In this document: positions 11,801 to 43,600 of the stretch, in pieces
How the letters are laid out: the number at the start of each line of letters is the position of its first letter
Numbering within the stretch: position 1 is the first letter of the stretch
NCBI GenBank assembly: GCA_905178155.1
Contig: CAJINV010000021.1
Location: forward strand, 417,050-481,049
DNA length: 64,000 bases
Origin: Amoebophrya sp. A120
Taxonomy: Eukaryota > Protista > Dinoflagellata
Direction of reading: 5' to 3'
Position numbers and translations under genes: made by a program
The notes under the pieces: model-generated
The model's database searches: none
Told to the model about the DNA's origin: nothing
What the model saw: only the letters and a program-made list of their open reading frames with translations

Positions 11801-14800
11801 CCACTGGCACTTGCCAAAGTGGAGTAAACGGTACGAGGGGATGAAAACTGGTGCTACTGGGGGTGGAGAACGAAGCGGCGCCAGCACCTTTTCGGCAAGC
11901 GACTACCAGCTGCCCTACACGCGGGAGGCGGAGCTGGCTTTCGCGGAAACGGGCAAAAAAGACGGCATCCCGATCAAACAGTGTTGCTCTTTCATCGTCC
12001 AGGCCATGACCAGTCCGAACTTCCTCAGTAACGACTTGGAGCTGACCGAAAAGTTTGTCGTTCAGAACTGTGTGGTGTTTGCCAAAAACATGCATGAGCA
12101 TCTGTTCGGCAAAGAACCCACTGCGGCTGAGCAGGCAGCTATTGATGCGGCAACAACTCCCGTGGGGCCGGAGGCTTTGCCGCCTGCAGGTGTAAGAAAT
12201 AACGTCGGCGCCCCGGAGGTTCCGAACGCTGACTGTGAGGTGGGACCCTGGGCGGCGGTCGGGGCGTGCTCCAAGACTTGTGGGATCTACGACAATACCC
12301 AAGTGCGGATCCGGCAAGTGACCTACCCCCAAAGCGGCAACGGGAAAAAGTGTCCCGCGCTGCAAGAGACCGTGCCCTGCACGCTCGAGGCGTACACCGG
12401 GGAGTGCAGCGTAGATTGCGAGGCGACCGACTGGTCGCCTCCTGAGTACGGCTCCTGCAGCGTGGGACCGATAAAGGGTCCCGGGGGTGCGGTTCTGTTC
12501 GCGAAGCGGTGCCGGAAAACCCGCATATGCATTGCAAATGTATCGCACTAAAGTGTAAAGTGTATTACAAAGTGCCTTACTTCGTATGAATAAAATATGT
12601 TTTTTTAGCTTAGGATGGCGATTTGTAATGCGTTGTATCTGCAATTGCTGCGAGCGCGATACTTTTGCAATGCATACCGCACGCGGGAGATCAAAACCCC
12701 ACCGACGGGGCCCGACGCAGCCCCCTGCCCAGGGAACAACGAAGAACTGGAGCAAGCAAAACTCTGCACCATCAACGACGATACCTGGAAAGAGTGCTGC
12801 GAGGATATGGCTTGCTCAGATGTTACAATCTCAAACGTTACAATAGAATCTGGAATTTGTCTTGCATGAACAGCATGAGTACCATACAGAGACTTGGGCT
12901 TTTTGCAATACAAATTTCGTCAGAATCTCATGGGGTTTGGGGCTCCGAAACTTGTCATGCGCGCCCCTTTGGGAGTAGGCCAGATGTTGCGGATTTTGCA
13001 ACACAAGTTCCAAACTCTATTGCAACGTTTGAGATTGTAACACCTGAGCGGGTTATGGAGGACAACGCCGGTGCGGAGTGGACCGAGTGGACGGCATGCA
13101 CCAAGACGTTATCAAATGTAAAAATGTCTGGGTCTGGACGGTTAGAACTTGTCATGCTAAATCTGAATGATGCAAAAATCTGTGTTGCGTGAGTGCCAAA
13201 AGCTGTCCGCTTTTGACCAAGTTGAGAGGGAGTATCTCATGCAGGAAAGGCATGACAGAGACCTCACAAAATCTGTCATGCTGGGTCTCACATTCCAGAC
13301 CTCATGGGTCATGGAAAACCTGCATCACAAATCTTGCATTCTTCCAGACCCAGACATTTTTACATTTGATAGACGTGCGGTGGCGAGGACGAAATGAAAT
13401 CGCGCACGAAGACCGAATACAAATACCTGATCCAGGACCCGGTGCAGTGCGTCAGCGAGGTGACACGGGACACAGCCCGTTGTCACGAGGGGCCGCAGCC
13501 GGACTGCCCACGGGACTGCAAACTGAGCCACTGGACCGAGTGGGGGGAGTGTTCCAGCACCTGCGGAAAAGGCCAACACACGCGGACAAGAACAGTTGTG
13601 CAGCAACCCATCGGGGACGGTGAGCAGTGCCCCGATAGTGCCACTGAAAAAAGCGCCTACGAAGAAACAGGGGAGTGCGAAAACACGATTGAATGCGTCC
13701 CGAAAGTGGACTGTGCACTCGAGGAAAAGTATGTCGCTCCTGTTGCCCAGGAAAATAATAACGGGAACGACAACACCGAAGAAGGCGGGTGGTCCCCCTG
13801 CAGTAAAACCTGCGGGGGCGGCGCGAAGTTCCGCATCAAGTTCGTAGACCAGCTGCCGCAGGGATCGGGGAAGAGCTGCCAGAAATTGTTTGGCAAGGGC
13901 GAAGGCATCACTGATGCCGCCGTGGTGGCCAAAGAAGACATCACTATCAGTTGGGGGTACATCGACGCCGGGGCCAACGAAATAAAGGGAGCACACTACA
14001 CCGATGGAACGCCAGTTGAAATAATAAATGCGGAGCAGGAGCAGAGCCAGAGCAGCGGCAGTGTTAGTACAAGCAAGCTCAAAATGTACATGAAGGAGAC
14101 AGCCGATTGCAATCGGGAGGTGAAATGCCCGGATCCTGTAGATTGCGTGATGAAAAACTGGGAAGCTTGGACGGAATGCTCCAAGAGCTGCGACGGCGGT
14201 ACGCGGACGCGCGCACGGTACGTAAAAACTCCGCCGAAGGAGGGTCGCCCGAAATGCCAAGACGTGGACCTGTACAAAATCGAGAATCTCCAGAAGGGCT
14301 ACGCCAACGGGACGGCGCCGCACTTTGAATGGCTCTCGACGGGCGGGGGCGGGCAAGAACAACACGACGGAAAGCTGCACCAGAAGGAAACCGCGCGCTG
14401 CAACGAGATACACTGCCCCTGCGCGATGGAAGAGTGGGCCGCGGATTGGACGACGTGCAGCGTCACGTGCGGCCCCCACGGGAAACAGACGAGGGAGAGA
14501 AAGGTGAGTACCCTGGGGGGCTACGCGGACCTGACCGGCTGCAAAAGTCTTTTCGGAGACGAGAGCAAAGCGGGTGTGCAACACGATAATGGGGTGTACA
14601 TCATACGCGACGCAGACGGGATTACTCGGCAGTGGGAGGAAAAATCGCCGCTGGAAAATTCGATACAGAAGGAAACGCGCAAGTGCAACAACTTTCCGTG
14701 CGACGACCAGCCAACAGGGGACGCTGCAACTACGGTAGCCCCGCCCGAGGACGGTCCACCGGCTTGCGTCCTAGACGAGCACTGGTGGAAAGCGGACTCC

Positions 14801-15442
14801 TGCGGCTGTCAATGGAGGGGCGTGAGTAGTCCCGCTACGGGCACGTGTTTCAATGATATCCCACGAAGAAAGTGTTGCAGTTACACACTTGATGTTGCAA
14901 TTGCAGCAACACAAATTTTCTCCGCATGGCAGAGAAAACTTGTAATGCAGAGTTCATAAGAGAAAACACGTATGAAACAAGGCTTGAAAGCATTTCGTGC
15001 ATCACAGAGGTTGTCTGTCTTGCGTGTTCTGCAGCACAATGCGTAACACTTTTTTCGTTGCATAAATGGCGAAGACGGCGCAGTGTACGCGGTCTATAGC
15101 AACGCTGCCGCGAATTGTCCGGCCTGCAAAGGCCGACCTGCGTCTGTCAGCACGCCCTACATTTTGTCCGACAAATCCTGCGAAGACGACAAATGCAGGG
15201 TGGGTTCCGCCCGTGCCCCTGCGTTCGCGAGCGGGTGGGTTCCGCCCTTGCCTCCGAAGTCGGGGGAGACGGTGCCCGGTTACCGAACCCTGGTGAACAC
15301 CGATATTAGAGACCTGTTTGCGTCGCAAGAGGCGTATTGGAACTACGTGAACGACATCGCAGCGCAGCAAGCGGTGCTGGAGGCTTCCCAAAAGAAGCAG
15401 CAGTCCAACTTCTTCGGGTTGCCCACATTTGGTCTTAGGTGA
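8883..15442 (+). CDS. Large secreted/surface thrombospondin type-1 (TSP1) repeat protein, 8 TIR introns
   Basis: Hydrophobic N-terminal segment; repeated WxxWxxCSxTCG...RxR motifs. One continuous frame results from removing 8 elements, e.g. WTEWTACTKT|CGG and CRKTR|TREIK. Confidence 0.88.
10042..10370. mobile_element. TIR intron, family A
   Basis: TATTGCGAGGAAGAATCCGCCCTCCCCATA/TATGGGGAGGGGGAATTTTTGCTTTCGATA; duplication CCGCA. Confidence 0.92.
10405..10688. mobile_element. TIR intron, family C
   Basis: TATCCCGTGTAAAAACGTCC/GGACGTTTTTACTCAGGATA; duplication CGGAC/CGGGC; homologous to 57256-57544. Confidence 0.92.
10814..11051. mobile_element. TIR intron, family D
   Basis: TATGGTGTTGTCAAACGTTAC/GTAACGCTTGAACACGCCATA; duplication TCGTG. 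Confidence 0.92.
11082..11302. mobile_element. TIR intron, family B
   Basis: TATGCAAGAAAAAAACTGTG/CACAGTTTTTTTCTTCGATA; duplication CCGAA. Confidence 0.92.
12526..12676. mobile_element. TIR intron, family E-like
   Basis: TATGCATTGCAAATGTATCGC/GCGATACTTTTGCAATGCATA; duplication CCGCA. Confidence 0.92.
12806..13057. mobile_element. TIR intron
   Basis: TATGGCTTGCTCAGATGTTACAATCTCAAACGTT/AACGTTTGAGATTGTAACACCTGAGCGGGTTATG; duplication GAGGA. Confidence 0.9.
13110..13371. mobile_element. TIR intron, family F
   Basis: Perfect TIR TATCAAATGTAAAAATGTCTGGGTCTGGA; duplication GACGT; reverse-complement homolog at 28358-28618. Confidence 0.94.
14857..15064. mobile_element. TIR intron
   Basis: TATCCCACGAAGAAAGTGTT/AACACTTTTTTCGTTGCATA; duplication AATGA/AATGG; removal joins to ORF 15083-15442. 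Confidence 0.87.
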
Positions 15443-21814: not shown

Positions 21815-24800
21815 ATGACGTTCCGCCGGTGGGTCATCTTTCACTTCCTCTTTCGCACAAGCAAATCTTGTCTCCTGCAAGAAGTGTCGCTATCGCAGAA
21901 GCTGTTTCTGCTTACGGCGGGGGCTACCTATGAGGCGAATGCGTTGGATCCGGAGAAGAGTACTAGCCGGTCAGGATCGGGTCCGCCGGGCTCCTTGTCG
22001 GAACAAAGCAACATTTTATTTCCAGGGCAAGAAGATGGCCGCTTTCTTCACGATGATGTTGGAGATAACATCGAGAAAAATTCGAATTACGTCGACATTA
22101 GCCAGGACGCCGACTTTTTCTCTCCCCAGAGCGAAGAAGATGTCGAGCAGGCCGCAGACTTTCATGAACGATCATCCAGCGAGAACCCTCGGAAGATGGG
22201 GCGCGGTGAAGGTCGTACGCCGGCGGTAGCAAGGCCCTCATCTCCGGTAAGTGCGGAAGCTGCACCAGCCGAAGAGATCCCAAATGGTCAGGAAGCGACC
22301 TCTTCATCGTCGTTCGCTGCAGCGGGAACAACCGATGGTGCGGGTGACGACAATATTAAAGCCGTCAATTCACCATCATCTCCTGGAAAGGTGCAAGTTG
22401 AAATTGATGCAGAAGCGAACCTACGAACTGCAAAAGTATCGTAAGTTGTACTCGTAATGTAAATGCACCATTAAAAATGATTTCCTTAGCATGAGAAATG
22501 AAATTTGTATTTGTAAATGCGGATTTGACTTAACAAGAAAATTTTAAATGCACGATTGCAAATGCAATACGAGTACAGTACGATTTTGCACAGGATAGAA
22601 CCAGTACGTCTCGAAGCAAGAAGTGCGGCAGATGGTGCGCGACTTGATGCTTCTTGAGCAGCACGCTGCAGGTAGAAGTAGCACTGACGCCCGGCTGCAG
22701 CGTCTGGAGGAGGAGAATCGGAGGCTGCAGCAGGAAGTGGAGAGGCTTTCCTCGAAAGCGGACTCGTTCCAGGAGGAAACCTGGCGGTCGTTCCAGCGGC
22801 TTCGCTTTGTCGGGGCCCAGGTGTATCACATGCTTTTCTTCAGCCTGTTATGCATTTCAAAAGTATCGCATTCGCACGGCACTGCCGCTAGCAACATAAA
22901 TCGCATGTTCTTGACACATTTCCTCATGAAGCAGAGCCGAGCGCTGGATTCAGGTAGGAAAGCAAATTTTTGCATTGCTGCAATTTTTAGTTTTGACGAG
23001 AGCGATACTTTTGCAGGGGATACCTGTGGATTCTCATCGGCACGTGTGAGAGTGCACAATCGTCCCTCCTCCTCATTTGTCATGCAAGATCCACAATCCA
23101 AATCCAAATGCCGCCTCGATGTCGATGTGGCAGTGTTTGCATGACAGATCCCGGAAGCCAAAGCAGTACTGCAGGACTAGCACTAGGCGCGTGAATTTGT
23201 CATGCGCTTCAGGAGGCTGCAGCTGCACATGTGCATGTGCTGCTGCTGGTGTTTGTACTGCTATGGATGCCATACAAATCAGGGGGAGCAGAAGTTGTGC
23301 ACTCCCATAGCACGGCACGGAGCAACCAGGACATTACCTTCGCGCTGATCGTTCTGGGGTTCCTGTATGGAGTTCTCACACTTTGCGCTGTCAGCTGTTA
23401 CATGATTTGTCATGCAAAGGCGCCATCGCCGTCATGTCATCTTCAACCTCCACACGATGAAGCTGGCTCACGTGGCTGATTATTGAAGCGTGGCAAAAAT
23501 TCGTTTCAAATTGTAATCAATTTATTATAGAAGTACTCTCTGGCAAATTTTGCTAGTTGTACAGGTCTGGCATTCATGAACTCACTGAAGAGTGCGTGAG
23601 GAGCACGGATGTAGCTAATGAGTAATGACAATGTCTGAGAATGCCATACTGTGTGCTGCGTTGTTGGTACCGCCGCACCTTGGTACTTGGCAATATTTGC
23701 TGGCGCTGATCGTCGTCGACGCTACTTCTCGAAAAAGCGGTCTACAACTGAGGATGAGCTCGCTCGTACTACTAGTGGTCGCGCCATAGCTGCAGAAAAT
23801 GCGAGCTCGAGGGCCTCTCGTCTCCCCAGTAGTGGCGAGACAGTTACAACCAGGCGCGCAATGCAGTCGACGAGAATTCTTGCGTCGTCTAACCCTGGAG
23901 AGGACTTGCTGCCTGCTGTTGCCGAAGAAGTTCTTGCGAGTGGGGGCGAGATGGTGAAAGCGGCCGCAGCGGGACCGGAGACCACCGAATTTTCGCGACA
24001 CAACATAAAGAACGATACAAGCGAGGGTGCGGGCGATCCTGATGTTCCGCACGTTGGCGTTGGCCGCGTGGCGCAGGAAGCTGCCGGCGGCGCAGCGGAT
24101 GGCCGCGCAGCGGATGTTCATGTCGCGCCCTCCGAAGAGGAAGAGCCAGACGAGGACACCAAGAAGAACTACCAAGAGAAGATGAGTAAGGTTGAAGAGG
24201 ACGAAGAGGATGACGCGGACCCGGTTCCGTATGATTTTATCCTTCAGGGCACCTTGTCGTGCGTGTGTCAGGACGGCGAGTCCGCGGAGGGACGCTTCTT
24301 TACGGTCTGCGTTGTGTTGTACATGATGAGCTCTCTGCTAGCAGCGCCTCCCTTCGAGGCCTACACATCTTGATGCAAGTTTCGAGACGTGACTGAGCTG
24401 CTGCAGGGCAACCCCGGGCTCCCGCGGCTGCAGAACTGGATTGAGGTAACCGCTCGGGCGTTGTGGCACGTGGTCCCATATGGCGTTCTCAAACGTTACA
24501 TTCTCAACTGTTACATGATTTGTCATGCAAAACTCCAATCAGATTCGACGCGATCAAGCTGTTGCGCATGACAAATTCTGGAAGGCCCAAACAGGCTGAG
24601 AATCTGTGCCAAATCTGTCATGCAAAAGGCGCTATCTTTCCCCTTTCAGTTTTGCCATTCTTGCACCACAAACTCATGTAACAGTTGAGAATGTAACAGT
24701 TGAGAACGCCATATCCCAAACTTCTGCTTTGTGCTCGTGGCGGTCCTCCCCGCGGCCTCCGATCCCCGCGTGCGGGCGAAGATCCGACGTGCGCGACTTT

Positions 24801-27045: not shown

Positions 27046-29037
27046 ATGAGCAAACTGTTGCAAGTTTCGGTTTGCTGGTGTGCCCTCTTCGGCGTTTCGC
27101 TTTCCCGTGGCCGATCGAATTCTGGTGCTCCTTCTCAACAGGTAGGAGAGCAAAATAATCCGGCGAGTGCACCAGCTGCCGGACCTGCTAGTACCAGCTC
27201 CGGACCTGAATCTGCCGTAGGCGCCGTCGAAACTTCTACCAGGGAGCCAGAAGGGGAGGACTTTGTCCTGGTAGACGAAAACATGCTGTCAGATTTGGAG
27301 GACGACGGAGAGCTGGTATAGTTGTTGTGGATACACGCTCATATCAACATTTCCATCCGTAGGTATGTGTATCATACAATTTTCATCTACAACCCCTGCA
27401 TAATCTCCATTTATTCATCAGTGTGTGTCAATATCTTGAAGCGTTCTTCTCCAAAGATTCTTATACTAACTTTATCCGTCTTGATCGCTCATCCGTATTT
27501 CTTACAACACGACGCAGGTATCAGAACCGGAAGGGGAGCAGCAAATTGACGACCCTATGGAGGGCGTGGTTGAGGAAGGAACAATCGCAGGAGCAACGAC
27601 TGACACCATCCTGCAAACCCCTGGGCCGCAAAACTACAACTTCGCGGCCTTTCACGACGATGAGTTTCCGCTCCTGCCTCCGACGTACCACCAAGATCAG
27701 GAAGAGCAAGCTGCTAGTGCAGCTACACCAGCGCAGGACGCAGTGTTGCACCGCATCCCGAGCGTGTTCAGTCGCGGAAGCTTATCACAGGAAAAACAAA
27801 GTGTTAACGTTAACGGTTTTCACAGATTGCAGTCATGCATCACAAATGTAGCCCAATATGCATGACATACATGACAAATTATGACACGTCTTGTGATGCA
27901 TTTCTGCATCACAAATTCCGCCAACGTTAACACTTTTTCTTGTGATGAAGCTCCACGGACACCAGCGTGAGTCTGGACAACGGGCGCGCACAGGATACGA
28001 ATGTCGGGACCATTACTGCCATTACTTCTACAGTCGGAGGACAAGAGCGAGCCGGGCTGGAACTACAGGATGCTGGTGAGCAGGGAGCTACTGTCGTGTC
28101 GGCATCTTCTTCAAATCAGGACACTACTACAACCTCTTCGGCTGCGTCCAGCGCGATGCAACAAACCACTAACACGGACGAGCAGGCTTCTTCTGCGCAA
28201 GAACTTTCTGTAAACACGGTGAATAATTATACCGGCAGCGCGGCTGCATCTTGTGCCGCACAGCCGTTGGAAACCCTGGCGCACTTTCTCGATGTGGAAG
28301 AAAACGACGCACGCCTGTTGACCACCGGCGCAGGTGGGGCAGCTACCGGTGCAACGGTATGGATTGTAAAAATGTCTGGGTCTGGAAGAGTGCAAACTTG
28401 TCATGCAGATTTTCCATGACCCTTGAGGTCTGGAATGCGGGACCTAGCATGACAGAGTCTGTGGGGTCGCTCTCATGCCTATCCTGCATGAGAAACTCCC
28501 TCTCAACTTGGTCGAAAGTGGACAGCTCTTGGCAGTCATGCAACACAGTTTTTTGCCTGGTTCAGATTTAGCATGACAAGTTGCATTCTTCCAGACCCAG
28601 ACATTTTTCCATCTGATAAACGGAGGACAGTGACAATAGCGATCGTTTCATGAACGAGCGGGACTTTTTATCAAACAAAAAAGTGTTAACGTTAACGGTT
28701 TTCACAGACACAGATGGCAGTCATGCATTACAAGTTTTGCCCTTCATGCATGCTGCGCAATACAAATTTGCGCACCTTTTCTGATGCATTACTGCATCAC
28801 AAATTCCGTTAACGTTAACACTTTTTCTTGGGATACTTTTGGTGGTGGCGGCAGCAGAGTGACGATGAAGATGACGGGGAGAATGGCGAGGAGACGACCA
28901 ACGGAAGCGCCGAGGACCCCAGCTCCTACTATTACGGCCAGGCCTGGGAGGCGCAGAATGGCTTCGACGCACAGCAGCAGCAGCAACCCACCGCGTCCGC
29001 CTACAACCGTACATTTATACGGTTTTCACTGATTTAG
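27046..29037 (+). CDS. Uncharacterised, probably secreted acidic low-complexity protein (GT-AG intron 27316-27517; 3 TIR introns)
   Basis: Signal-peptide-like N-terminus; ORFs 27046, 27557, 27967 and 28828 join in frame. Confidence 0.72.
27783..27947. mobile_element. TIR intron, family G
   Basis: TATCACAGGAAAAACAAAGTGTTAACGTT/AACGTTAACACTTTTTCTTGTGATG; duplication AAGCT. Confidence 0.9.
28358..28618. mobile_element. TIR intron, family F (opposite orientation to 13110)
   Basis: TATGGATTGTAAAAATGTCTGGGTCTGGAAGA/TCTTCCAGACCCAGACATTTTTCCATCTGATA; duplication AACGG. Confidence 0.93.
28669..28835. mobile_element. TIR intron, family G
   Basis: TATCAAACAAAAAAGTGTTAACGTTAACGG/CCGTTAACGTTAACACTTTTTCTTGGGATA; duplication CTTTT. 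Confidence 0.92.
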
Positions 29038-30211
29038 ACTTTCGCTTTCCGTCGCTTGCAGGCAGTCATGTAGACTACATGACTATGTAGCATCGTATGC
29101 ACAAATATTAAGCTCAAGTCTGGATTTGGAAGGAAGAAACACTAGCGTCTTTTTCTCGTTTCGTATGTTACTTTCGTATATTTTTCGTGCAATTCATCAT
29201 TCTCCTACTAGATCGAACATCAAAATTCAAAATAACAGATGACGAGCTGTCCACGCCGATCAGCTACCGCCGGCAAGGATTCCTGTCGCCGAGGCACGAA
29301 ACGCACTTTGGAATGGTCTAGGGTGAACTCGGAAGCACGACCACACGCAAAAATGTCGAGAACTAACAAAACATACGGGTAGCACGCGCCAAGGACTCAA
29401 CATTAGAATTCAACCGCACTTATCTTCTTCCGCACCGATATCAGAAAAACTTGCACTCCTGTTTATCTTCCTACACTTTTAGTTCTTAAAAATTTGTACG
29501 CCACACATGATATACGCAGCATCGTTTTCGTTTCATATTCGTCGTGTGTAATCGATTGATTTTTTGACTCTGTGAAACTGTAACTTTCTGAATGAAAAAC
29601 AGCTTGAAACTTCTTTACACAAGATGAAAAATAGCTAGAGGAAAACCTCGATTTTCTCTTTAGTTCTTATCTGCGAAAGTCCTAATTTTATGCGATGATC
29701 ATGATGGTTTTGAGTTTGAGTTTGACGATTATAGAATACAGAACATGTTGACAATTAAGAATCCACCGCGTGCTACTTTTCTTTCGTTTTACTGACCTGC
29801 AAATGCACACAGAACTCCAACGCATCGTAGTGTTGCCTAAACCTTTACCTTGAGAATCTAGCCGCATCGTATATGTAAATGTTCAGAGCAGCGCAAATAG
29901 CCGTCACTTCTGCGTCGCTCGACTCTGGGCATACTTTGCGCTCATGTTGTTCGCGTAGCTGTGATTGAATCTTAATCTCCTGAGACAGAAATAGGAATCT
30001 GTAGCAATCGGGCAGGTACCACGATGGGGTGAGAACAGCTTCTACTTTCTGATGTACGAACGACCAAAAAATACCAAGATCCACGAATTTGTTGAGATAT
30101 GCAAGGTGACGACGTTCTTGCACCAGCGCCTTGACCTCCGGCCCTTTCTTTGCAATTATCCAAAACACACATTCGTCATTAATCGCTTGTCAGCTACAAT
30201 AAATGTAAATC

Positions 30212-32766
30212 ATGAGGTTTAATATTCAACATCCGGCACGGGCTCTACTTCAACCAGCGATGCTCGGGCCACGCCCGTTTGCCTGCGGGCAGAGAAGCCT
30301 ATCAGGCTTGGCAGCGCGTTGCTCTAACGAAAAGCAGTACTGCTCAGGTTCTACTGGCACAGTACGACAACTATCGAGAATACCACGACGTGGGCATGCG
30401 AAGAGCACCAGTGGTCTTAGTGTTGGCCTGCGATGGCAACATTCCTCAGCACTCAGCGCTGAAGGTGGCGCGGCGGTGGTGGACCACACTACCGAAAGCA
30501 ACTCGCTAGTCATTCAACTAGGAAGACCAACAGAAGGAGATGCAGATGAAAAAATCACGGAGATTCTCCTCGTCGTCCCTCGTTTCAAGGACGAGGAGCC
30601 GACCAAGCTGCTTCCCGAGCCGGTTGTCAATTTTCTTACGGAGAATGGGGTTCGCTTCGAGGCGAAGACCGTCGGTGCCACAACGTGGGTATACAACCCC
30701 AGCAACCCAAGTTCTTCAGGTGAAGCACCAGCTTCGGAGTCCGAGAGGACTGGATCTCGGATAAAAAGAACCCTTCTTGTAGGTCTTGGAGAGTCGTCCA
30801 AGCTCACCTGCCACAGACTTCTCACCGCGGTAAACGCTGCACGTGCGGCCCTCGACGCACAGAAGGTCTCGGAGGCGACACTCACCGTTCTGTCGCCGGC
30901 ACGTGGTGCGGCTGATGGCCTGGAGCAGCAAAAAGATCATACTACGTGGTCAACATCTTCTTCGGTATTCCCGGTTGAGAGCACGCCCAATATTGTCGTT
31001 GCGGATCAGGAGGAAATCGTTGAGGCTGGGGCTGATTGCTCTTTCCATATCACTCCGCGCACCCTCACGGAAGCGTTTTTCGATGCGAGCTACAAATTTG
31101 ACCAGCTGCGCAAGAAAAAAAGCGCTCACGAGAACGAGAAACCAAGTAAAAACTCGCGGCCTCCGACAAGGCATATTTGGCTCGCCGCACCATCTCCATC
31201 ATCGTCGACTTCAGAATCATCCGCAGAGCTGCACGAGGACCAGCCTAGCTTTTACTCTAGTTGCGAATTCGGCAGTGCTGTCGCAGCCGGCAGTGCTTAT
31301 GCACGGACCTTGAAGAACCTCCCCGCCAACATTTGCAACACGGATTACATGGTCTCCGAACTTGAGAAGCTCGCGCGGCAGGATCGCGAAAATGATCAAG
31401 GCGGGAACAAGATCATGATGAACAATTTCTCAAATCTGACCGTCTTCGCAACAAAGGAACTGGAAGCCATGGGTTTTGGGTGTCTGACCGCGGTAGGCCG
31501 CGGCAGCGCCACCGAGTCGTATTTGACGCGTTTAGAGTGGAGACATGCGGGTGGTGGGCCAAGCGGTGGACAGCACGGAAGAATAAATAGAGAAAAGACC
31601 ATCGTTCTCGTCGGCAAGGGTGTCGTTCACGATTCCGGGGGGTTAAATTTGAAGCTCGGCTCTGGCATGTCCGCTATGAAGATGGACATGGGCGGCGCGG
31701 CCTGCGTGCTCGGTGTGTTGAAAGCGCTCAGCCAGCTTTTCCCGCCTGATGGTGAAGGTCGCGGCAGCACTGCTGGGCTACAAACACTAAACACGGAGAA
31801 CAAGTCCACCGGCGAGACAATAAACCACGGCACTCAGCCTGTGCGCGTCGTCGGTATTCTTCCCCTGGTGGAAAACTCAATCAGCGGCTCCGCCTACCGC
31901 CCCGGCGACGTGCTGACAAGTTTGGATGGCTTGACGGTCGAGGTGAACAACACGGACGCGGAGGGGCGGTTGATTCTGTGCGACGCGTTAACCTGGGCCC
32001 AGCAACAGTACCCGGACGCGGATTGTTTCATCGACATCGCAACCTTGATATGCATTGCAAAAGTATCGTACTAGTATAAATTGCATCACACATTTTTTCA
32101 AGAAGAAAAATGAAATGCTGATTTACCTAGAAAGGGATGTTTGTCATGCATGATCGCAATTACTACGAGTACGATACTTTTGCGCAGGATACTTGACCGG
32201 CGCCATGGTGACCGCGGTCGGCCCGGATTTTTCCGGGCTGTTCACCAACTGCAGCCAGCTGAAAAACGAGCTTTTACGCGCCGGCTTGTCCAGCGGGGAC
32301 CGGGCCTGGCCGTTTCCGCTGGTGGAGGCGGGGGAAAGGTACGAGGACATGCTCAAGTCCAAATATGCGGACCTGAGCAACTATCCAGTGTAAAAGCAGC
32401 GTACTTGTAGCTACTGCTGTTGGACTGCATGACAAACCTAGCTTCTATACCCTAGTAATCAGCATGACAAATTCCATTTTTCCTTCTGTAAAAGTTTGTC
32501 ATGTAACTTTTCCAAAGACGAAGCACAAGCAACAGTACCATAGTACAACTTTTGCAATGCATAGTAACATCGGGAGCTCGGGGGCGGCGGGCAGCATCAC
32601 CGCCGCGCTGTTTTTGAAACAATTTATTACGGGGAAAAATCGGTGGGCGCACCTTGACATCGCCGGGAGCGCGATGGGCGGGAGCTTCGACAAAGCCAGT
32701 GCGACGGGGAGGCCAGTGCCCCTGCTAGTGGAGTTCATCGCGAAGAAAATTTTGGGAATGGGGTAG
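30212..32766 (+). CDS. M17 leucyl aminopeptidase (2 TIR introns), possible organellar presequence
   Basis: [28 protein letters not shown]; splicing restores DIATLTGA and ADLSNIG...GSITAALFL...WAHLDIAG. Confidence 0.94.
32049..32191. mobile_element. TIR intron, family E
   Basis: TATGCATTGCAAAAGTATCGTACT/AGTACGATACTTTTGCGCAGGATA; duplication CTTGA; splits the conserved ATLTGA motif. Confidence 0.95.
32382..32563. mobile_element. TIR intron, family E-like (diverged)
   Basis: TATCCAGTGTAAAAG/CTTTTGCAATGCATA; duplication GCAAC/GTAAC. Confidence 0.88.
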
Positions 32767-33789: not shown

Positions 33790-36700
33790 ATGAGCACCAT
33801 CGATCCCCGGTACCTTCGTCTCTCCGGCGCGCAGCTGGCCCACCGCCACAGCACAGCCGAAGGGAAGAACGAGCAGATTGTCTATGCTCTCTGGAAGGAC
33901 ATCACGAGCTCCCTCGAACGATCGGAGAGCCACAAAACCGAGGCGGCGGCGCTGATGGCGGCGATTCGGTACCGGGTTCGCGGCTACCCGGAGAAATTAC
34001 CCGCGATTTTGTCGAAGCTGGTGCGGTTTTTTTCCACAAACTTCGAGGACGTGAGCGACGAGCGGTTTGAGATGGCGGCGGATTTGGTGCGGGCGGAGCT
34101 GCCCGACGCCCGGGCGGGGGAAATTGTGTTCTGGGTCTTGCGCGGCATTCTCGTGGACGACGCGACATCGGTTTTGTGTCATATTGTGGCGCTCATGGAG
34201 GAGGAACTGCCGAATTTGCCGATTGTGGATAAGATCCAAAAAGCGCTCGTGTTGGTTCACCTCTACTACAACAGTTCGGAAGTGGAAGAACAGCAGGAAC
34301 TGCAGCAAACGCAGTACATTTCCGCCCCAGTAGGAGAGAAACAATTGCAGGACATGACGTTCCAACAGGGCTACGACTTCGCTGACTACAGCAACACGCT
34401 GAACAGCGGCACAGCAATGCCCTCGAAAGGCATCAAGCGGCCGCGCGCGGAGGGCGAGGCCAAGCCCGATGAACCAGAAGGGGAGGTCCGGCCGCTGAAA
34501 AACCAGGGACGACGAGGCGGACCAGGGTATTACAACGAGTTCGACGCGTTGCGGCGCGATTCTTCCGCGTACTCCAGCATCAACAGCAGCATTTCCCGGT
34601 CCTCTGGCCAACCGAGTCGGCGGAGCGCGCAGTCCGTAGCGAGAGTGGAGCCGACCGAGGAATACGGTGTGGTGAATACGTTTCTGGGAAAAATGTCCAG
34701 CGAAGGCGAGGGGGCGGAACAGTCGCGCATGGAGGCGATGCGCGATAGTGCGGTGGAGCAACAGGCTGGTGGAGTTGAACCCCAAGCGAGTATGCGGGGC
34801 GCCACGGACTCCGCCATTTCGATTTCCTCGGCCGGGAGCAATTCTATCAGCATCCAGGGCAGTGTCCGAAAGTCCAGCCAGATGCAGAGCCAGGCTGGTG
34901 TAGTACCGTCTCGCGGAAGCAGCTCCGCCGTTAACTACAATACGTCAATTAGCTACGGCACCGGCGACTACCCGCGCCGGGAAGAGGACAATCCGACAGT
35001 GGTCATGCAGTCGAGGCAAGACAGCTCGCAAATACCCAGATCGACGCGGGAAAACGAGTCAACCGGGTTTTTCCTCGCGCCAATGACGTCGTCTGCCGGT
35101 GCCTCATCAGGAGGAGGCCGGGCAGCAGGAGCCTCCTCTACTTCTGCATCCAGAACGCACAGCACTTTTAACGAGAGTGTGAAAATACCGTCGAGGTTTG
35201 ACCCGAAGTCCTCGACTTCCTCCAGTTCGACGTTCCGGTCCAGCTCGAGTTCTAACAACAGCAGCATGCGGGACCCGTCCAGCAGCTTCAGCACGGGGTT
35301 TGCCGTACCGTTGGCCACACAAACAATGTCAATGGCAGCTCGGGGCTTCAACAGCAGTACTTCCGGGCGTCCAACAGGACCGTCCAGCGCGTCCAGAGGT
35401 GGGAGCAGTGCTGTCCAGAGGACAAAATCATTTCCGATCGTCGACACCAACTACCGACCAAGAATCCCTTCGGAATCGCCGCGCGACCACGAACCGGTGG
35501 ATTCCAACCCGATGACCGCGGTGCAGATGTCGATCAAGAATATCGAGAAAACGGTCACTAACGTTGTTGCTGCGAAAGCGGGCGAGCAGCAGCGCCCGAG
35601 CGAGATGTTTGACCAGCAGGGCAGTACGCGAGCGCTCATCGCCAACGCGGAGCGAACGGTGGTGAATGCACAGGTCACGGAACCAATAACGAGCAGTGAT
35701 GTGGCCGCGCCACCACTTTCGGCGGCGCTTGCGGTGCCGCGGGCGAATCCCAGCACGGCGTCAAGTGTAGCTGATCCTGGGTCCGCTCGCGGTTCGAACA
35801 ATCCTTCGAGGACGGAGGAAAATTCGCTCTTGAGAATGCTGAATCAACAGCAGCAGGCAAGCAAACAGTCGTCCGCGCAGCGGATCGCGATGGAACGTTA
35901 CGGGCGTGAGGGGCCCAGTCTGGCCGCCCCGGCGGACGCGCCGGTGTATCCTGCGAGTGCCCAGAACAAGTTGCGACCTCTGACGCTGCGCGACATGCTG
36001 GATCCGACGGACGCCGGAAACTTAACCGCGGCGGAAAAAAGCCGCATTCGCGCATACAACCCCTCCCGGGACGCGATGGGGGACGTGATGCAACGCCCCC
36101 CACCACAAACGCCCGAGGACATTAGTGCGAAGAAGCGGGTGCCGCTGCTCGAGGTGTTAGCCAAGGTGTGTGACGCGGAGTGGAAGCGGACGAACCCCGC
36201 GGCGGAGGAGTCGTACCTCCCGCACGACTCCGCGGTGAAAGATTTGTCCAACCTGCGGAAACAGATCCTGCGCGCCATCACCTCCGGATCCTGGGAGAAC
36301 TACGGCATTGTGAATGCGAAATTCGAATCCATTATGCACACCGACGCGATCGGCGCGTACAAGGCGACGCAGAGCCAGCCGGTGGGGCAGAAACTGGCGA
36401 TGAAGTACGGGGAGACGCCGCAGACCCTGGAAATGATGGCGGTCCAGTGCGCGACCAACCCGTTTGTGCTGCAAAACGCTTCGCAGTACCGGGTCAACCG
36501 CGGGGAGTACTTGCAGGATATGGGCCGGGTATTATCTGAGATTGAGAACGAAGGGCGGGGCAGTCTGTTTCTCGCGATGGCGGGTGAGGAAGGGAACGAA
36601 ACCCTGGTCCAGCAAGCTTTAAAGCCTTACGAAATGTTGCAACAAAACATGGCCACCGCACTCGGACACAACCCCTCAGCACCGGGTACTACGGGCAATG

Positions 36701-39700
36701 CGACTCCGAGAACTAGGGGCAATAATTCGACGGAGCAAGTGCAGGCTTCGGAATATAATTTCAACAATATGGATCAAAACATCAACAACTCAAGCCGCAG
36801 TTTGACAAATTCCCTGTCCCCAAGGGAGAAGGAGATCAACGTGTTCCTGATGTCCACGAACAAACACCACGCTGGCGCCGACGGGACAGACCCAGCAACC
36901 CTGTTGAGCACCCCACCAAACAGCCGGGAACTGAAAGACCCGAGCTTTGTGTTGCTATCCTGTGCAAAAGTATCGTACTCGTAGTAATCGCAATCATGCA
37001 TTACAAATCTTTATCCCATGGCAAAACAGCATGACAAATTCCATTTGTCATGCTGAGCTAATTTGTATTGCAATTACTACTAGTACGATACTTTTGCAGT
37101 TCATAGTTGCAAATGGACGACAACGGGGTCACGAACTTCTTTGACCAAGTGATCGTGGGTATGAACGGACAAAATACAACTTGACCCCAGAAAGAGCATA
37201 GAGCGCCACGAGAATGAAACTAGCGACCTACGAGAATGAGGAAGCAAATGGGGCCCCACCCGCTTACAACTTTTCCCGCTCCGGACGGGGTAGAGGCTGC
37301 ACTTTTCATAGGGCTTGTGCCCGTTTTTTCGCGCAAAGCTACTTGTTTTGCGCGCGGTTTTTCTCCGCTCGAGCGGTCGGGTGGAGAAAAACTGCATTAC
37401 AAAATTGGAAAACCGGCCGGATGCAGATGCAGCTTTTCTCCCCGCAGGAGAAAAGCCGCATCACAAATTCGCAAACTCCGCTTCCTGCGGTTGGAGAAAG
37501 ACCGCGCCTCCGGTTCTCCGCATTACAAATGCGGAAAGGTGACCTTTCCGCATTACAAGTGCGGAAAGGTGCCCATAGCCATTGCATTTGTAATGCGGAG
37601 AGCCCGACCTTTCAAAGGTCGGGCTCTCCGCATTACAAATGCAATGGGCGGAAAGGTCGGGCTCTCCGCGTTACAAATGCGGAGTGCGGGGCTTCCCAGA
37701 GCTCGGGGTTCGGGTTGTGGGTAAAATGGGGAAAGGGGAAAGCCCGGAGCCTCGGGTTCTCCGCAACCCGGGCTCTTCTCCGCATTACAAATCCCCCCAC
37801 CCCTTTCGCCACAAGCGGCTGCTGCAGCCGCTGCACACCGTCGGGCGCAACCTTTTGCGCGATGCTATCCCCAAGCAGCAATATTCGCACTCCCGATAGC
37901 ATCGAGCGTGAGGCTATGCTGCATGGTATCGCTGCGTGCGAATTTCCCTCGCAGCCATACCATGCTGCATTAGGTTACGCACGACCTGTGGCTGTCTTTC
38001 TCTGCCCCCCTTGGGCGTTGTGCAGCTTCTTTTTACCCTCAAACACGACCGGACCCCGGGAAAAGTTGTGGTTTAGGGAGGAAGCACAACTTTTCCGCGG
38101 ACCACCCCAAGCCGGCCCCGCGGTGCCGCTTCTCCCGCATGAAGCCACGGGGTTGCGCGGGCCCTCGTGCAGTCAATGGTCCAAATTCCCGCGGCGCTCG
38201 GTGTTTCGCAAGCATACACCTCCGCAGAGAGACACGGCCGATTTTTGGCGTTTGCCGTTTTTGCGCCGGGCCCCGAGGGTCCGGTCGCTAGCAATGAGGG
38301 GCCAGCGCGCGCCTTCGTTGTGTAGCCGGCGCGCTTTTTGTGGCAGGCTGCGCGCCTTTTCGTTTTGTTTTTTTCGTTTCTGTTCCTGTTGGGGTCCAAA
38401 GACAGGGCGCGGAACTAGGGGCGCCGGTGCGCTGGCGGTGTTTCTGGGGCAGCGCCAGCAGCGATGCTTCAAGCGGAGGGGGGGGGGCATGCAAAAAGGG
38501 GTCGCGCTCTGCAAAAAGCAGCTCTGCAAAAAGGGGTCACGAACTTCTTTGACCAAGTGATCGTGGGCCCGCACGATCCCTAAATCGGAAACATCAATCC
38601 GCATGCCTATAGGGGAAAACCCTAAACCCTTTGCGACCGAACGCCCGCATGGAGTACTCCCACGAGCTAGCTGGCGGCCCCGGCTGCGCGACCGGGTCCG
38701 GAGGGGAGCGTGGGCAAGAGAGGCGTTGCTCCAGTGAAGTGCAACGCCCATGACCTTTTTTTCTTCGTTGCCCGGGTGCGCGCAGCCAGCGCCCTTCCCG
38801 GCGGCGATCACCTCCGACCGCCACGACCCTCTGACCCCCGGTCACGTGCCGTCCGGCTGGCCGGACGGACGTGACCCGCCCGGTCACGTCTAGGCTCCTT
38901 GTTATCTTGTAATAATTTTTAGGGCAGGGGACCTAAGGCCCACCCACCTGGGTGGGTCGAAGGTCCCCTGAGGACCTAAGCGGACATTTTGTGACCCTCT
39001 TCTAAGCTACTCAAAAAGTCGCGGCGCGCGCGGCGCTTTTATTTTGAGGGCCAGCGCACTGGCGTGCAGATTTGGCCCGGGGATGTCGTGCGAAAAAAAC
39101 GCGGGAAACCAGGGCCAACACAAAGAAGGCCAGCAACCGCGCCCGCAAATCGGGGGGGAAGACTGACAGACACCCGGCGGGCCCGGCAACGCATTATACG
39201 GGGCGCGCCTCGCCTGTTTAGTTTCTTTCTTTGTTTGTTAGTACGGGGTCACGAACTTCTTTGACCAAGTGATCGTGGGCCCGCACGAAGTCATCACCGA
39301 GGGCGTGAATTTCAACGTGAAACAAACGGAAAACTTGCCGTTTCGCCAGACCGTCGACTACAACCCTCGAAATTTCTCGGTTGCGTATCAAGGCGCGGGC
39401 GCGCAAACAGCGACGAAAATTATAGGTGCAAACAATAGTCCGCGGCAGCCAACGCGCGCGAACAACAATAACATACCCGAGGCAATACCCGAACAGCAGG
39501 AGTACGAGTCGTCAAACGAGAATAACGACAAAAAGAATGAGGAATACATCCTTCCTCCCAAGAACGACAATAATCTACCGCCAGCAGGGAAGAAGAAAAC
39601 GGTTTCCGCAAGTGTACAGAGCTACACGCAAAATCAGCGACAGGACCTGCTCTCGAAAATACCAGGCGGCACGACGAAAAACGCGCAGGAGGGGTACAGT

Positions 39701-39742: not shown

Positions 39743-40617
39743 TGCGGAAGGGCCTTTTGGGTGCAGTGCTTCTGCGCCCTTGTTTTAATTATTCATTTGT
39801 TTTTTTCTTTTTTTATTTCGTAAGTGAGTCTATGATCATGCGCATCAAGCGCTGCAGTCCCTAAGTTGTAGACGTTTACTCACAGACATTCGACTTGAGT
39901 ATATTAGAGATTGAGATACTACTTGTACTACAACTTCTAAGTACAATATCACACCGTGCTGCAACTGCAAGAAAATCGGCTGGGGACGACACTTGATTCA
40001 ACTACAGTCCCATCAGATCTGGGAGTTTTCTGCCAATCGGAAAAGCTTGAGGACACAGAGACCCAGTGCCGCATGTTGCGAGTCTATTTCGGATATCAAT
40101 ATTCCTTCATCTTTTGCATTCAGGTTCAGACCGAAGATATTTGACAACATTATGAACTTGAAAACAACTACAGGTTGGTCGTCACCACCTGTGGTTTTTT
40201 TTGCCGCGCAGGCTTTTCCTTTTTGCTCTTGCGCGTTTTTGCTGTTCACATTCGAAGGTGGCACAAGCACACGGTTTGAGAGCAGTCCATGCTGATGTGC
40301 TGCGCGCGTCTCATTGGTGCAGCCGCACCAATCTTGTTGTGCCCCGCCCATGGTTAACTACTCACAGAGAGATTTATTTTATGACCGTACGTATCCCGGC
40401 GCGTAAGTACATACAATATCACGATCATCATGACCGTGACTGCGTAAATTGGTTGCCAGCACGCACAAGAACATTCCTACCGTTCAGAACGACGGCCTTG
40501 TGAGTGTGTGGAGTAACGTAAGTACATCAAGGTCAACATCAAGTACCAAAACGCAGAGGAGTGTTTTTACGTACCTGATCGATCCTTCAATGTTGTTGAT
40601 CAACTAGCGCCAGAATC

Positions 40618-43600
40618 ATGGTCGTCGGTGAAGACGTACTAGATTTCTTTGGAGATAACATTTCGCACAGCAGCACGTCCCAACCCGAAAACTCCACCCG
40701 TGTTGGTGGTTTGCCGCACCAGTCACCGGCCACCGGTACTGCTCCTACTACCACCTCTACGACCAACATGGCAATCGACGACTGGCTAGCAAGTTCTCCT
40801 CCGCGGAGCCATAAAATGCCTGCGACGACCGGAAATAACTACACAAAGCCGGTAGCAGCTGCGTCTAGCAATTTTGATGACGATTGGTTGTTCGGATCGC
40901 TGAGTTCTTCTAGCACGGAGAAGAAGAAAAATGAGGGGATCAGTTCCACAGCATCCATGTCGACGTCCACAGGGAACAGCAGCAGCACGGGAAGAACTTC
41001 TACGCCTACCAGTGGCGCAAGTTCTTCTATGCACCACCAGCTTCGTCCGGGCGGGGGCGGCAATGGCAACCTCAACCACAATCCGAGTAGTTCCTCTGCC
41101 AGTAGTTCGTCTAACTCCAGTGCTGGCCTGAGCGATGACTACCTCTACGTCGACTCCGAGACGCAGAGTGTGCAGCTGACAGGAGGGTCGACGTCAGGGA
41201 CAAGTAGAACTACAGCTCGGACGTCGGCTCCTTCTGCGCAACAGATGGTTTCTACGCCGACCACTACTTCTGGTCGCCAACAGGAACTACAGCACGTGCA
41301 CCCTCCGTCTCAATCCTCCCGAGCAGCACAACAGCTACATGAGGACTCATCTTCAAAAGTCGATCCTTTTTACAACAATCTTTCCACAACTACATCAAGT
41401 CGGGTGAGTTCGAAGGAAGGAAACAGCACGAATCAAAGCTTTTCCGTGGAGGACGACGTATGCACTGCAAAAGTACCGTACTCGTAGTACTAATTGCTAT
41501 CATGCATGACAAACATCCCTTTTTAGGTAAATCAGCATCACAAATTCCATTTTTCTTCTTGAAAAAAATTGTGATGCAATTTATACTAGTACGATACTTT
41601 TGCAATGCATACGACGATGTGGGGTACGATGTGAACATCAAGTTGGAGCAAGGTGACGACGAGCACCCAGGAACAAACGCTCATGAGAATAGTAGCAGCT
41701 CCGGCAGTAACAATACTAATTCCGGCACGAAGATGAACAATAAGCCCTCCGGCGCGCCGGAGTATTTTTCCATGGTTTCGAACGACTCACCGCCACGAAA
41801 TCAAGATATGGCGTTCTCAAACGTTACATTCTCAACTGTTGCATGGATTTGTGATGCAAAAACAGCAATAGGGAAAGGGGCGAGCTTGCAAGTCTCGCAT
41901 CACAAATTTGGCACAGATTTAGACGCTGCCTAGCCCTTCGAGACTTTCTCATGCGAAGCAGCTTGATAGTCTGGAGGCTCATGATCATTTTGCATGACAA
42001 ATCATGTAACAGTTGAGAATGTAACAGTTGAGAGCCCCATACAAGAGCAAGGAAATTTTGGAGATTCTCAAATGAGTCCAGAAGTAAACTCATCATCGAT
42101 AGCGAACACAGGAGCTGACGATGATGGAGCTCCTACTTCTGCAGGTGGACCCGGTGCACCAGCTGCGTCCTCGAGTACCAGCAAGCCGTTTTGCTACCAG
42201 ACCTTCGTCACTGAGGTGTTGAAGCACCCCAGTGCCACGCCCACGATACACAACGCCAAGCTGTTTGTGGACCAGGTAAGTATCTTCATATATTAATCGT
42301 TAGAGTGCAAACTAGCCTTTCTCGGCTGGATCCCCTTGTACAGCACGACCACGGAACATTCAGAATGAAGAAAATGAATTTTCTTTGAGGAGAAAACTTG
42401 ATGCAAAAATGAGGCATGATGTACAACTACCTCGCGTTTGCAATCTATCGCGCCCAATAATAAATAATGCAGGTGAACAACCTCGCACCGGAAAAGCGCG
42501 GTGCAGCCATCGCATCCTTCCGAGCTTACATCCCAAAGCTGCATGCAAAACTGATGGAGGCTGAGATCTATGAGGAGTATAATTTTGAGGCAATCAATTT
42601 GTGGTGCTTCTTCTTTCTTGTAGATTGTTGGAATGAATATGAAACTGCGCAAATCTTATTTAAGCATATTTCTATGATCCACCAGACTCCTCGTGGTCCT
42701 CTTCTACATCTAGCAATTACATCCGCACCAGGGCCGACGACCAGTCTAAGCAATACGCGCTCGAAGGGCTGGAAAAGTTTGTCGCGACCAAAATTTACAA
42801 TTCCGTTTTTCGCATCCATCCGGAGGACGATGGTCGACGGGATCGGAACGTCTCCACAAAACTCACCTCGCTCAAGTGGGTCAAGCTGCACCGCCATCTC
42901 GGTACTACTTATATGAATGCGGAATGCCCAACATGTAGTAACAATAATGTGGTCGAGCGCAAAAGCAGATGAACAAAAACTTCTACAAGCAAGTCAGGGT
43001 GTGAGTGTCAGCAGGCACGCCAGCATTATTACGTAGCAGAAAAAAAAAATGAATGTTCTTCGTACGTGTTTCAATTAATTTTTCTATCACACAGACGTGA
43101 GCGAAGCGGTTGCCGAGCACCCAAAACTGGAAGTGGCCAAGGATTTTTTTACGCGGCTGAACGAGTACAAAGCCCCCCGGGACAAGCTGATCTGCCTCCA
43201 GAACGTGTGCAAAGTTCTCCTGACCTGCCTCGAACAGTGCAGTAACGGCTCCTCGGCCGGGGCGGACGATCTCCTGCCAGTGCTGCTTTTCGTGCTGATC
43301 CAGGTCAACCCGCCGAACTTGCACAGCAATTTGGAGTTTATCTCCAATTTTCACCAGCAGCTGGTCGAGGAGGGCTTGTACTACCTGACTACAGTGAAGT
43401 CCGCGTTGGAATTCCTTCGTTCTATGGACCACACGGCCCTATCTAACGTGGACAAGGGCGAGTTTGAGTTTAACTGCGAAGACATTCTGCGCCCCTTGGG
43501 GCTCGCGTTGGAACCCGAGCCGGGGGAACCGGGGTTTCTTGACGGCGGGAATAATGGTGGACCGGGAGGCGGAGCGTCGTCGTCGTCTACCCATGGGAGC

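What the first reader, a model, noticed from the sequence alone, without database searches (positions are those of the whole stretch)
13110..41611. Introns are orientation-independent
Seen: family F copies 13110-13371 and 28358-28618 are reverse complements of each other, as are family E copies 32049-32191 and 41459-41611. All host genes are on the + strand and each needs precise removal. Inference: excision cannot rely on a strand-specific branch point or polypyrimidine tract, which argues for structure-directed removal.
Basis: partly seen in the sequence, partly recalled or inferred. Interest (0 to 1): 0.8.

Follow-up and report, generated by a model that had tools for sequence, protein, structure and literature searches.

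The report
Reversible transposon introns with hidden polarity
Small hairpin-ended transposon copies inside genes of the marine parasite Amoebophrya, an already published intron class, are missing to the base from likely RNA contigs whichever way round they sit, yet a 'UA' stays intact only at their transcript-5' end, so they are likely cut by a relaxed spliceosome that reads a symmetric end, not by shape alone.

Summary
The F pair (87.5%) and E pair (89%) are true reverse complements in + strand genes. They are the published Amoebophrya A120 introner elements (TAT…ATA inverted repeats, 5-bp duplication). Likely-RNA contigs lack both E copies, F 28358 and both orientations of a third family; F 13110 is removed in a public gene model. 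Among 306 strand-assigned copies, orientation is about even (E 63:50, F 13:14).

The inference 'therefore structure-directed' does not follow, because the inverted repeat puts the same motifs on both strands. The ends are also polar: the terminal TA is broken in 0 of 278 copies at the transcript-5' end and 13 of 278 at the 3' end (p=0.0002). Mismatched duplications point to a cut 1 base before and 4 after the element, making that UA intron +2/+3, as in GU-A donors.

Best model (0.55): a relaxed spliceosome reads N-U-A, with the stem or end as the 3' ruler. This scan noted both orientations, the 1+4 cut and the UA before, on other DNA of this genome. A polar A>G hotspot in family E is unexplained.

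The parts
13110..13371 (+). Family F element, orientation A; TSD GACGT; likely intron 13109-13375 under the 1+4 cut; in the thrombospondin-repeat gene
   Evidence: removed in public model P0001; no RNA joint displayed
28358..28618 (-). Family F element, reverse orientation; TSD AACGG; host gene on +
   Evidence: 266-nt skip in 4 of 4 likely-RNA runs
32049..32191 (+). Family E element, orientation A; TSD CTTGA; in the M17 aminopeptidase gene
   Evidence: 148-nt skip in 4 of 4 runs
41459..41611 (-). Family E element, reverse orientation; TSD CGACG
   Evidence: 158-nt skip in 4 of 4 runs
36956..37105 (-). Family E element, reverse orientation; TSD GTTGC
   Evidence: host gene not covered by the RNA contigs
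22422..22597 (+). Family E element, orientation A, starts TAC; TSD GAACC
24479..24713 (-). Third family (G), opposite to 41807; TSD TCCCA
   Evidence: 240-nt skip in X1 record 5
41807..42041 (+). Family G element, opposite to 24479; TSD CAAGA
   Evidence: 240-nt skip in 4 of 4 runs
32382..32563 (.). E-related element with mismatched duplication (GCAAC/GTAAC); RNA keeps the left copy at position 2
   Evidence: 187-nt skip, 3-nt slide
23366..23648 (.). G-related element with degenerate duplication (TCCTG/CTGTG); still removed as element+5, cut at least 3 nt into the repeat
   Evidence: contig coordinates and arithmetic: 918 removed, 317 kept
23045..23309 (.). Only known element with a broken 5' TA (starts TGT); under the 1+4 cut the intron starts GTG
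22849..23022 (.). E-like element, TSD CCTGT
10405..10688 (.). Element upstream of the finding with a TSD mismatch at position 4 (CGGAC/CGGGC); the public model uses the left base (Asp)
14857..15064 (.). Element with a TSD mismatch at position 5 (AATGA/AATGG); the public model uses the right base (Gly); an RNA contig piece ends at 14851
27783..27947 (.). Element ending ATG instead of ATA (broken 3' terminus), still removed
   Evidence: 170-nt skip in 4 of 4 runs
28669..28835 (.). Element of the same family and orientation as 27783
   Evidence: 172-nt skip in 4 of 4 runs
29009..29238 (+). Canonical GT-AG intron in the same transcript (control that these contigs are spliced RNA); starts GTA, no pyrimidine tract
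9477..15442 (+). Host gene, thrombospondin type-1 repeat protein (public A120 model P0001, 1326 aa), interrupted by 8 elements
30209..32766 (+). Host gene, M17 leucyl aminopeptidase
40600..44239 (+). Host gene region ending in a VPS9-domain ORF; holds 41459 and 41807

Best explanation
These are non-autonomous, MITE-like elements with TAT…ATA inverted repeats and 5-bp duplications that sit in genes in either orientation and are missing, with one repeat copy, from likely-RNA contigs; they are likely removed by a relaxed U2-type spliceosome that reads N-U-A at whichever end is 5' on the transcript and likely sets the 3' cut at a fixed distance from the other end. Shown: both orientations are equally common and both are removed exactly; no GT-AG is needed; the 5' TA is under strand-specific constraint; a perfect duplication is not needed. 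Inferred: (a) insertion by a cut-and-paste transposase in trans, with random orientation (no transposase found). (b) The cut lies 4 nt into the duplication, so intron = 1 nt + element + 4 nt, and the invariant U and A are intron +2 and +3, the positions of a GU-A donor, with +1 free. (c) The subterminal stem, or a protein bound to it, brings the ends together and replaces the AG and the strand-specific tract as the 3' ruler. Orientation independence then follows from symmetry: each end can serve as donor. (d) The chemistry is spliceosomal; this is the least tested step.
For: Orientation: E 63:50 (p=0.26), F 13:14, G 7:6; 1781 same v 1717 opposite pairs; 16 of 18 families with 3 or more copies occur both ways; orientation is not clustered on the E tree (35 changes v 37.2 shuffled). 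Removal. Register: left base kept at TSD position 2 (RNA; model P0002; stop codon otherwise in L063), positions 1-3 and position 4 (model P0001; stop otherwise in L023). Right base kept at position 5 (P0001, with the contig end; P0002). All 8 informative observations fit a cut after 4. Polarity: TA broken in 0 v 13 of 278 (p=0.00024); family-aware position 1 deviates in 0/232 v 7/232; substitution spectra show no general strand bias (family E A>G 178 v T>C 173). The single 5' exception starts GTG, a permitted GU-R donor. All 3 canonical introns seen in the contigs start GTA, and 2 of 3 lack a pyrimidine tract. Farhat 2021 (passages) found U2, U4, U5, U6 and nearly all spliceosomal proteins in A120, but no U1 snRNA. 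Its A25 repeats start TTA-R-R, which would also give U+2/A+3 if the cut there is at the repeat start (inference).
Against: No lariat, branch point or snRNA pairing was shown. G at +1 is at background (83 of 306) and AG ends only 22 of 306, yet both are near-invariant in spliceosomal chemistry (established knowledge). No 3'-arm adenine was more conserved than its mirror: the A at intron -7 varies in 3 v 8 of 278, p=0.23; none in positions 4-40. The choice between a cut after 3 and after 4 rests on one gene model and one stop codon in a short frame; two further look-ups returned only unspliced ORF calls and a codon-likelihood test was uninformative. Gene models are assumed, not shown, to follow RNA reads. 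The RNA evidence is contigs of one sample whose RNA nature is a guess by the tool. Sense folds are slightly more stable than antisense (165 v 133 of 300, p=0.03), a small point for structure.
Confidence: 0.55

Rival explanations
1. A dedicated non-spliceosomal machine (for example a domesticated inverted-repeat-binding protein with an RNA nuclease and ligase) recognises the stem together with the 5' UA and cuts 1 nt before and 4 nt after the element, as proposed in general terms for euglenid nonconventional introns.
For: No G+1, AG or detectable branch signal. At least 7 of repeat pairs 8-20 form in 268 of 300 predicted folds. U1 snRNA was not found in A120. A review reports euglenid nonconventional introns released as circles without lariats.
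Against: It does not explain why the only invariant bases coincide with donor +2/+3 of the genome's canonical introns, or why the one exception is GTG. No candidate enzyme was identified.
Confidence: 0.25
2. Pure structure-directed removal: only the hairpin shape is read, for example by a tRNA-endonuclease-like or Ire1-like enzyme.
For: Both orientations fold strongly (z -5.8 to -8.5, as expected of inverted repeats) and are removed. Terminal position 1 and family E position 21 vary in the direction that leaves a U-G wobble.
Against: The 5' TA is constrained while 3' changes giving A-C, A-G or U-C mismatches are tolerated. There is no overall G-U excess (347 v 313). All three terminal pairs form in only 183 of 300 folds. 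Flanks show no pairing for a bulge-helix-bulge (4-bp helix 128 v 125.7±4.6 shuffled).
Confidence: 0.15
3. The elements are excised from DNA (somatic or transposase-mediated), not from RNA.
For: A transposase acting on inverted repeats is naturally orientation-blind. The RNA label of X1-X4 is a guess, and 737 joints were not displayed.
Against: In the flat-depth (about 45x) DNA-like run X5, contigs run through 12526-12676 and 14857-15064 and into the other elements. X1-X4 also skip a canonical GT-AG intron and leave long stretches uncovered. The end constraint follows the direction of transcription. Removal with one repeat copy leaves no footprint.
Confidence: 0.03

Closest known systems
Introner elements (IEs) / non-canonical introns of Amoebophrya sp. 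A120 (Farhat et al. 2021, PMC7789003; seen: abstract, passages, sections 11, 12, 16 in full, term search of the supplement text; figures not seen)
   Same: Same organism label on matching proteins (P0001, P0002, 100% identity). Repeats start TAT + 7 variable nt + at least 3 A; 3-5 nt direct repeats; no splice dinucleotide consensus; predicted hairpin; co-oriented gene blocks.
   Different: The text I saw does not report orientation relative to the host ('orientation' occurs only for gene blocks) and says the border position remains unknown. Added here: even orientation ratio with removal both ways, a likely 1+4 cut, and a 5'-specific UA constraint.
TIR/TSD introners in general (Gozashti et al. 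2022 PMC9860276 and 2025 PMC12130899; passages only)
   Same: DNA-transposon-like introns with TIRs and TSDs.
   Different: The described families carry or co-opt recognisable 5' and 3' splice sites from the element or TSD. Here no GT/GC-AG exists in any register for 286 of 306 copies. The 2025 filter required same-orientation alignment.
Fritillaria borealis non-canonical introns (review PMC11282704 section 6; bioRxiv 10.1101/2025.08.15.670264 passages)
   Same: MITE-derived, non-GT-AG introns whose splice sites lie in the TIRs, removed by a modified U2 spliceosome.
   Different: Fritillaria has dominant terminal dinucleotides (AG-AC, AG-AT). Here +1 and the last 4 nt are arbitrary target sequence.
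Euglenid nonconventional introns (review PMC11282704 section 6)
   Same: TIR stem joins the ends, TSD-like repeats at the junctions, no pyrimidine tract, likely MITE origin.
   Different: The stem pairs +4..6 with -8..-6 (here +2 faces -5), and the introns are released as circles by an unknown mechanism. The product is untested here.

Membership tests
Amoebophrya A120 introner elements | Terminal inverted repeat starting TAT + 7 variable nt + 3 or more A | tested here: met
   TAT at 297 of 306 5' ends; A at positions 11-14 in 246-280 of 306; definition
Amoebophrya A120 introner elements | 3-5 nt direct repeat overlapping the exon/intron borders | tested here: met
   Exact 5-bp repeat in 240 of 306, one mismatch in 66; this was also a search criterion; 0 chance hits in 214 kb shuffled
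Amoebophrya A120 introner elements | Repeated in families | tested here: met
   18 families of 3-113 copies, one pair, 53 singletons
Amoebophrya A120 introner elements | Removed from transcripts without GT-AG | tested here: met
   7 element joints in 4 of 4 likely-RNA runs; GY-AG possible in 20 of 306
Amoebophrya A120 introner elements | Host genome is A120 | tested here: met
   Window exon 100% identical over 46% of the query to an A120-labelled protein; L030 exon 100% to another
MITE / non-autonomous TIR DNA transposon | TIRs, fixed-length TSD, no coding capacity, random orientation | tested here: met
   no Pfam hit in ORFs of the three longest window elements
MITE / non-autonomous TIR DNA transposon | Cognate transposase and evidence of mobility (empty sites) | tested here: inconclusive
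   No transposase hit in the window ORFs scanned; no whole genome held; empty alleles not examined
U2-type spliceosomal intron | G at +1 and AG at the 3' end | tested here: not met
   G+1 in 83 of 306, AG in 22 of 306 under the 1+4 cut
U2-type spliceosomal intron | U at +2, purine at +3 | tested here: met
   306 of 306 and 306 of 306 (305 A, 1 G) under the inferred 1+4 cut; constraint is 5'-specific
U2-type spliceosomal intron | Branch-point adenine and lariat intermediate | tested here: inconclusive
   No strand-biased motif or 3'-specific conserved A; lariats cannot be seen in contigs
U2-type spliceosomal intron | Dependence on U2/U5/U6 and Prp8 | not testable with these tools
   Needs depletion or inhibitor experiments
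Bulge-helix-bulge (tRNA-endonuclease-type) intron | Exon-side pairing forming a symmetric BHB around the cuts | tested here: not met
   No flank pairing above chance; direct repeats cannot pair with each other
Euglenid-type nonconventional intron | Release as full-length circles without lariat | not testable with these tools
   Needs circular-RNA or lariat sequencing

The most novel reading that the evidence does not exclude
Amoebophrya A120 has a spliceosome that has dropped U1, G+1 and the AG acceptor for most introns. It defines an intron by N-U-A plus an RNA stem that sets the 3' cut 4 nt past its end, so any TAT-ended transposon becomes a footprint-free intron at any site and in either direction. 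Splicing then selects polar changes within symmetric elements, such as the recurrent A>G about 25 nt before the 3' cut in family E.
Probability: 0.4. Interest if true: 0.8.

Novelty: already known. Interest (0 to 1): 0.5.

Why it matters
The elements are published, but how more than 60% of this parasite's introns are removed without GT-AG or U1 is open (PMC7789003). Removal in both orientations, a likely fixed 1+4 cut and a 5'-only UA constraint turn the question into specific tests: lariat versus circle, UA mutation with compensatory pairing, and U6/Prp8 dependence. They also explain how a transposon could invade coding sequence at no cost: it needs no splice site from the target and no preferred direction. 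If the machine is a spliceosome, its tolerance at +1 and at the acceptor is wider than usually assumed.

Tried and rejected
No whole genome was held and the records behind the loci could not be opened, so the census rests on the window plus 127 of 130 fetched loci from one assembly (3 overlapping ones dropped; 515 kb). Those loci were selected by a family E end pattern searched on both strands.

Rows dropped before counts: 75 of 381 elements had no host strand and were left out of orientation counts. The 263-bp palindrome and nested inner elements were excluded, and two window elements (22422, 32382) were added by hand.

Read evidence that led nowhere: no run was on record as an RNA holder. 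The raw RNA reads X8 and X9 did not cover the locus beyond repeat fragments, so splicing efficiency by orientation could not be measured. The gene holding 36956 had no contig cover.

Census of terminal variants: a first, loosely filtered census showed no significant polarity (position 1: 6 v 11; position 2: 9 v 11). It contained many multi-mismatch pairs unlike any family end, so I repeated it with a filter that ignores the terminal triplet. Both results are reported.

Register tests: codon likelihood at mismatched duplications was uninformative. Two protein look-ups returned only unspliced ORF calls.

Rejected: G-U excess in stems; exon-side BHB pairing; a TACG-context mutator as the cause of the family E hotspot (a neighbouring TACG site is 0 of 51); a subfamily explanation of that hotspot (33 tree changes v 32.8 shuffled, no linkage to other polymorphic columns). 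A conserved A at -7 was inconclusive. No copies of either end pattern were found in viral contigs.

Literature searches that found no statement on orientation of A120 introners. Huff et al. 2016 was not held; Roy et al. 2023 and Henriet et al. 2019 were seen only as citations or through a review. Figures of the Farhat supplement (S19-S25) were not visible and may bear on border position.
Full report
Observation. Self-BLAST confirms both pairs as reverse complements: F 13110-13371 v 28358-28618 at 87.5% over 256 nt, and E 32049-32191 v 41459-41611 at 89% over 145 columns. Same-strand similarity is limited to the inverted repeats. They belong to a set of elements that start TA(T/C), end (A/G)TA and are flanked by exact 5-bp direct repeats: 21 in the window v 0-1 in five shuffles. 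Retention gives early stops. Removal of the element plus one repeat restores + strand frames in genes for a thrombospondin-repeat protein, an M17 aminopeptidase, a VPS9-domain region and others.

Identity. A window exon matches a protein labelled Amoebophrya sp. A120 at 100% over 46% of the query. Farhat et al. 2021 (PMC7789003, section 11) describe A120 introner elements with repeats starting TAT, seven variable bases and three or more A, and 3-5 nt direct repeats. That is this anatomy, so the class is known. In the main-text passages and the supplement text, 'orientation' refers only to gene blocks, and the Fig. 3 legend says the border position is unknown. Gozashti 2022 allowed opposite-orientation matches in its method. 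Six searches found no statement on orientation in A120, but subscription papers were not searchable.

Removal in both orientations. Four runs of one sample behave as RNA: they skip a GT-AG intron at 29009-29238 and leave long stretches uncovered. All four skip exactly element+5 at 27783, 28358 (F reverse), 28669, 32049 (E forward), 32382, 41459 (E reverse) and 41807, and the record coordinates leave no extra letters between the pieces. Run X1 also skips 24479, the reverse of 41807. A 317-nt unshown part of that contig equals what remains after four more elements are each removed with 5 nt. In the DNA-like run X5, contigs run through or into the elements at flat depth. F forward (13110) had no displayed joint but is removed in the public model. 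The gene holding 36956 was not covered.

Larger census. A pattern scan returned 131 loci from one assembly; one of them matches an A120 protein at 100%. With the window, 515 kb gave 394 elements, with 0 chance hits in 214 kb shuffled, and 381 unique outer elements. A codon model assigned host strand to 267 confidently, with within-locus agreement of 227 of 228; 39 more were assigned by locus and 75 left out. Orientation is even: E 63:50, F 13:14, G 7:6; 1781 same v 1717 opposite pairs; 16 of 18 families with 3 or more copies occur both ways, and the other two have 4 copies each. Orientation is not clustered on the E tree.

Does this imply structure-only removal? No. The inverted repeat puts the same terminal motif and U-run on both strands (253 v 263 of 306), so orientation blindness is expected of a sequence reader too. 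But the stems show no G-U excess on the transcript strand (347 v 313). The terminal three pairs form in only 183 of 300 folds, while 7 or more of pairs 8-20 form in 268, and the flanks do not pair. In two copies shown to be removed, the extreme ends are unpaired in the predicted fold.

Polarity. With a filter blind to the terminal triplet, the TA is broken at the transcript-5' end in 0 of 278 copies and at the 3' end in 13 (p=0.00024). Five of the 13 would wobble and eight are true mismatches. Position 3 varies at both ends (8 v 3). A looser census that included non-family pairs did not show this. The family-aware count gives 0 v 7 of 232 at position 1 and 1 v 6 at position 2. There is no general strand bias in substitutions.

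Cut register. Mismatched duplications show which copy the mRNA keeps. Left is kept at position 2 (32382 RNA; P0002; stop otherwise in L063), positions 1-3 (23366) and position 4 (10405 in P0001; stop otherwise in L023). Right is kept at position 5 (14857 in P0001 with the contig end at 14851; L030 in P0002). All eight fit a cut after base 4, though 3 versus 4 is thinly supported and two more look-ups were uninformative. The intron is then 1 nt + element + 4 nt, and the constrained bases are U+2 and A+3. The three canonical introns seen start GTA, and the single 5' exception (23045) starts GTG. G+1 and AG are at background. The case at 23366, with only 2 of 5 repeat bases matching, shows that a perfect duplication is not needed.

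Mechanism. Most likely (0.55), a relaxed U2-type spliceosome takes N-U-A as donor from whichever end is 5' and places the 3' cut 4 nt past the other end, using the stem or a stem-bound protein as ruler. A120 reportedly has U2, U4, U5 and U6 but no detectable U1. Rivals: a dedicated non-spliceosomal machine reading stem plus UA (0.25), shape only (0.15), DNA excision (0.03). The chemistry is untested.

Unexplained. In family E, the A 21 nt from the element end (intron -25) is G in 34 of 62 and 12 of 50 copies when that arm is 3' on the transcript, but in 5 of 50 and 3 of 63 when it is 5'. The change is recurrent on the tree, unlinked to other polymorphisms, absent at a neighbouring TACG site, and not seen in other families. 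Tolerated U-G wobble, selection against a competing branch or donor site, or a site-specific strand-specific mutator are candidates.

Earlier notes of this scan (read after my reading was formed) report the same class, both orientations, the 1+4 cut and a UA donor mimic on other pieces of this genome. They are unchecked notes and not independent support.

Verdict: observation confirmed; interpretation partly supported; class already known; the added rule is testable and not found in the papers I could see. Interest 0.5.

Noticed in passing
family E, element position 21 from the transcript-3' end (window copies and L001-L128): Recurrent A>G only when the arm is 3' on the transcript (34/62 and 12/50 v 5/50 and 3/63); not a subfamily trait, not a TACG-context effect; unexplained.
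   Followed up: yes
window 48751-49013: A 263-bp palindrome, 262 of 263 positions self-complementary and extending into the flanks, with no loop and no 5-bp duplication, just upstream of the kinase ORF; could be a fold-back element or an assembly artefact.
   Followed up: partly
window 61991-62839 and 62067-62800: Nested elements: a 734-bp TAC…GTA element with 24/24 perfect ends and 59% GC inserted into a 110-bp TAT…ATA element; no Pfam hit in its ORFs.
   Followed up: partly
window 54904-55867 and 55942-57070: Long elements (964 and 1129 bp) in the DHH/DHHA2 gene; 54904 starts TAC and shares sequence with repeats at 53334-53534; no transposase domain found.
   Followed up: partly
window 29009-29238, 42277-42472: Canonical GT-AG introns with A-rich 3' ends and no pyrimidine tract; the ordinary introns of this genome may also do without one.
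   Followed up: partly
many elements, e.g. window 13110-13371, 24479-24713: An internal motif GCAT(G/C)AC occurs on both strands in about two thirds of elements across unrelated families (196 sense, 192 antisense of 306); a possible transposase or stem-binding protein site.
   Followed up: partly
window 2669-8070: Two tandem glycosyltransferase family 29 (sialyltransferase-like) genes, partly duplicated, one with elements.
   Followed up: no
window 37122-37159, 38530-38576, 39243-39288; 46475-46523 and 47877-47925: Short exact direct repeats of 37-49 bp; the first set copies the 3' end of the gene at 33709-37184.
   Followed up: no
P0006 v L042: A 93%-identical ORF of the same length from another contig suggests a related strain with elements at the same positions, useful for polarising duplication mismatches.
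   Followed up: no
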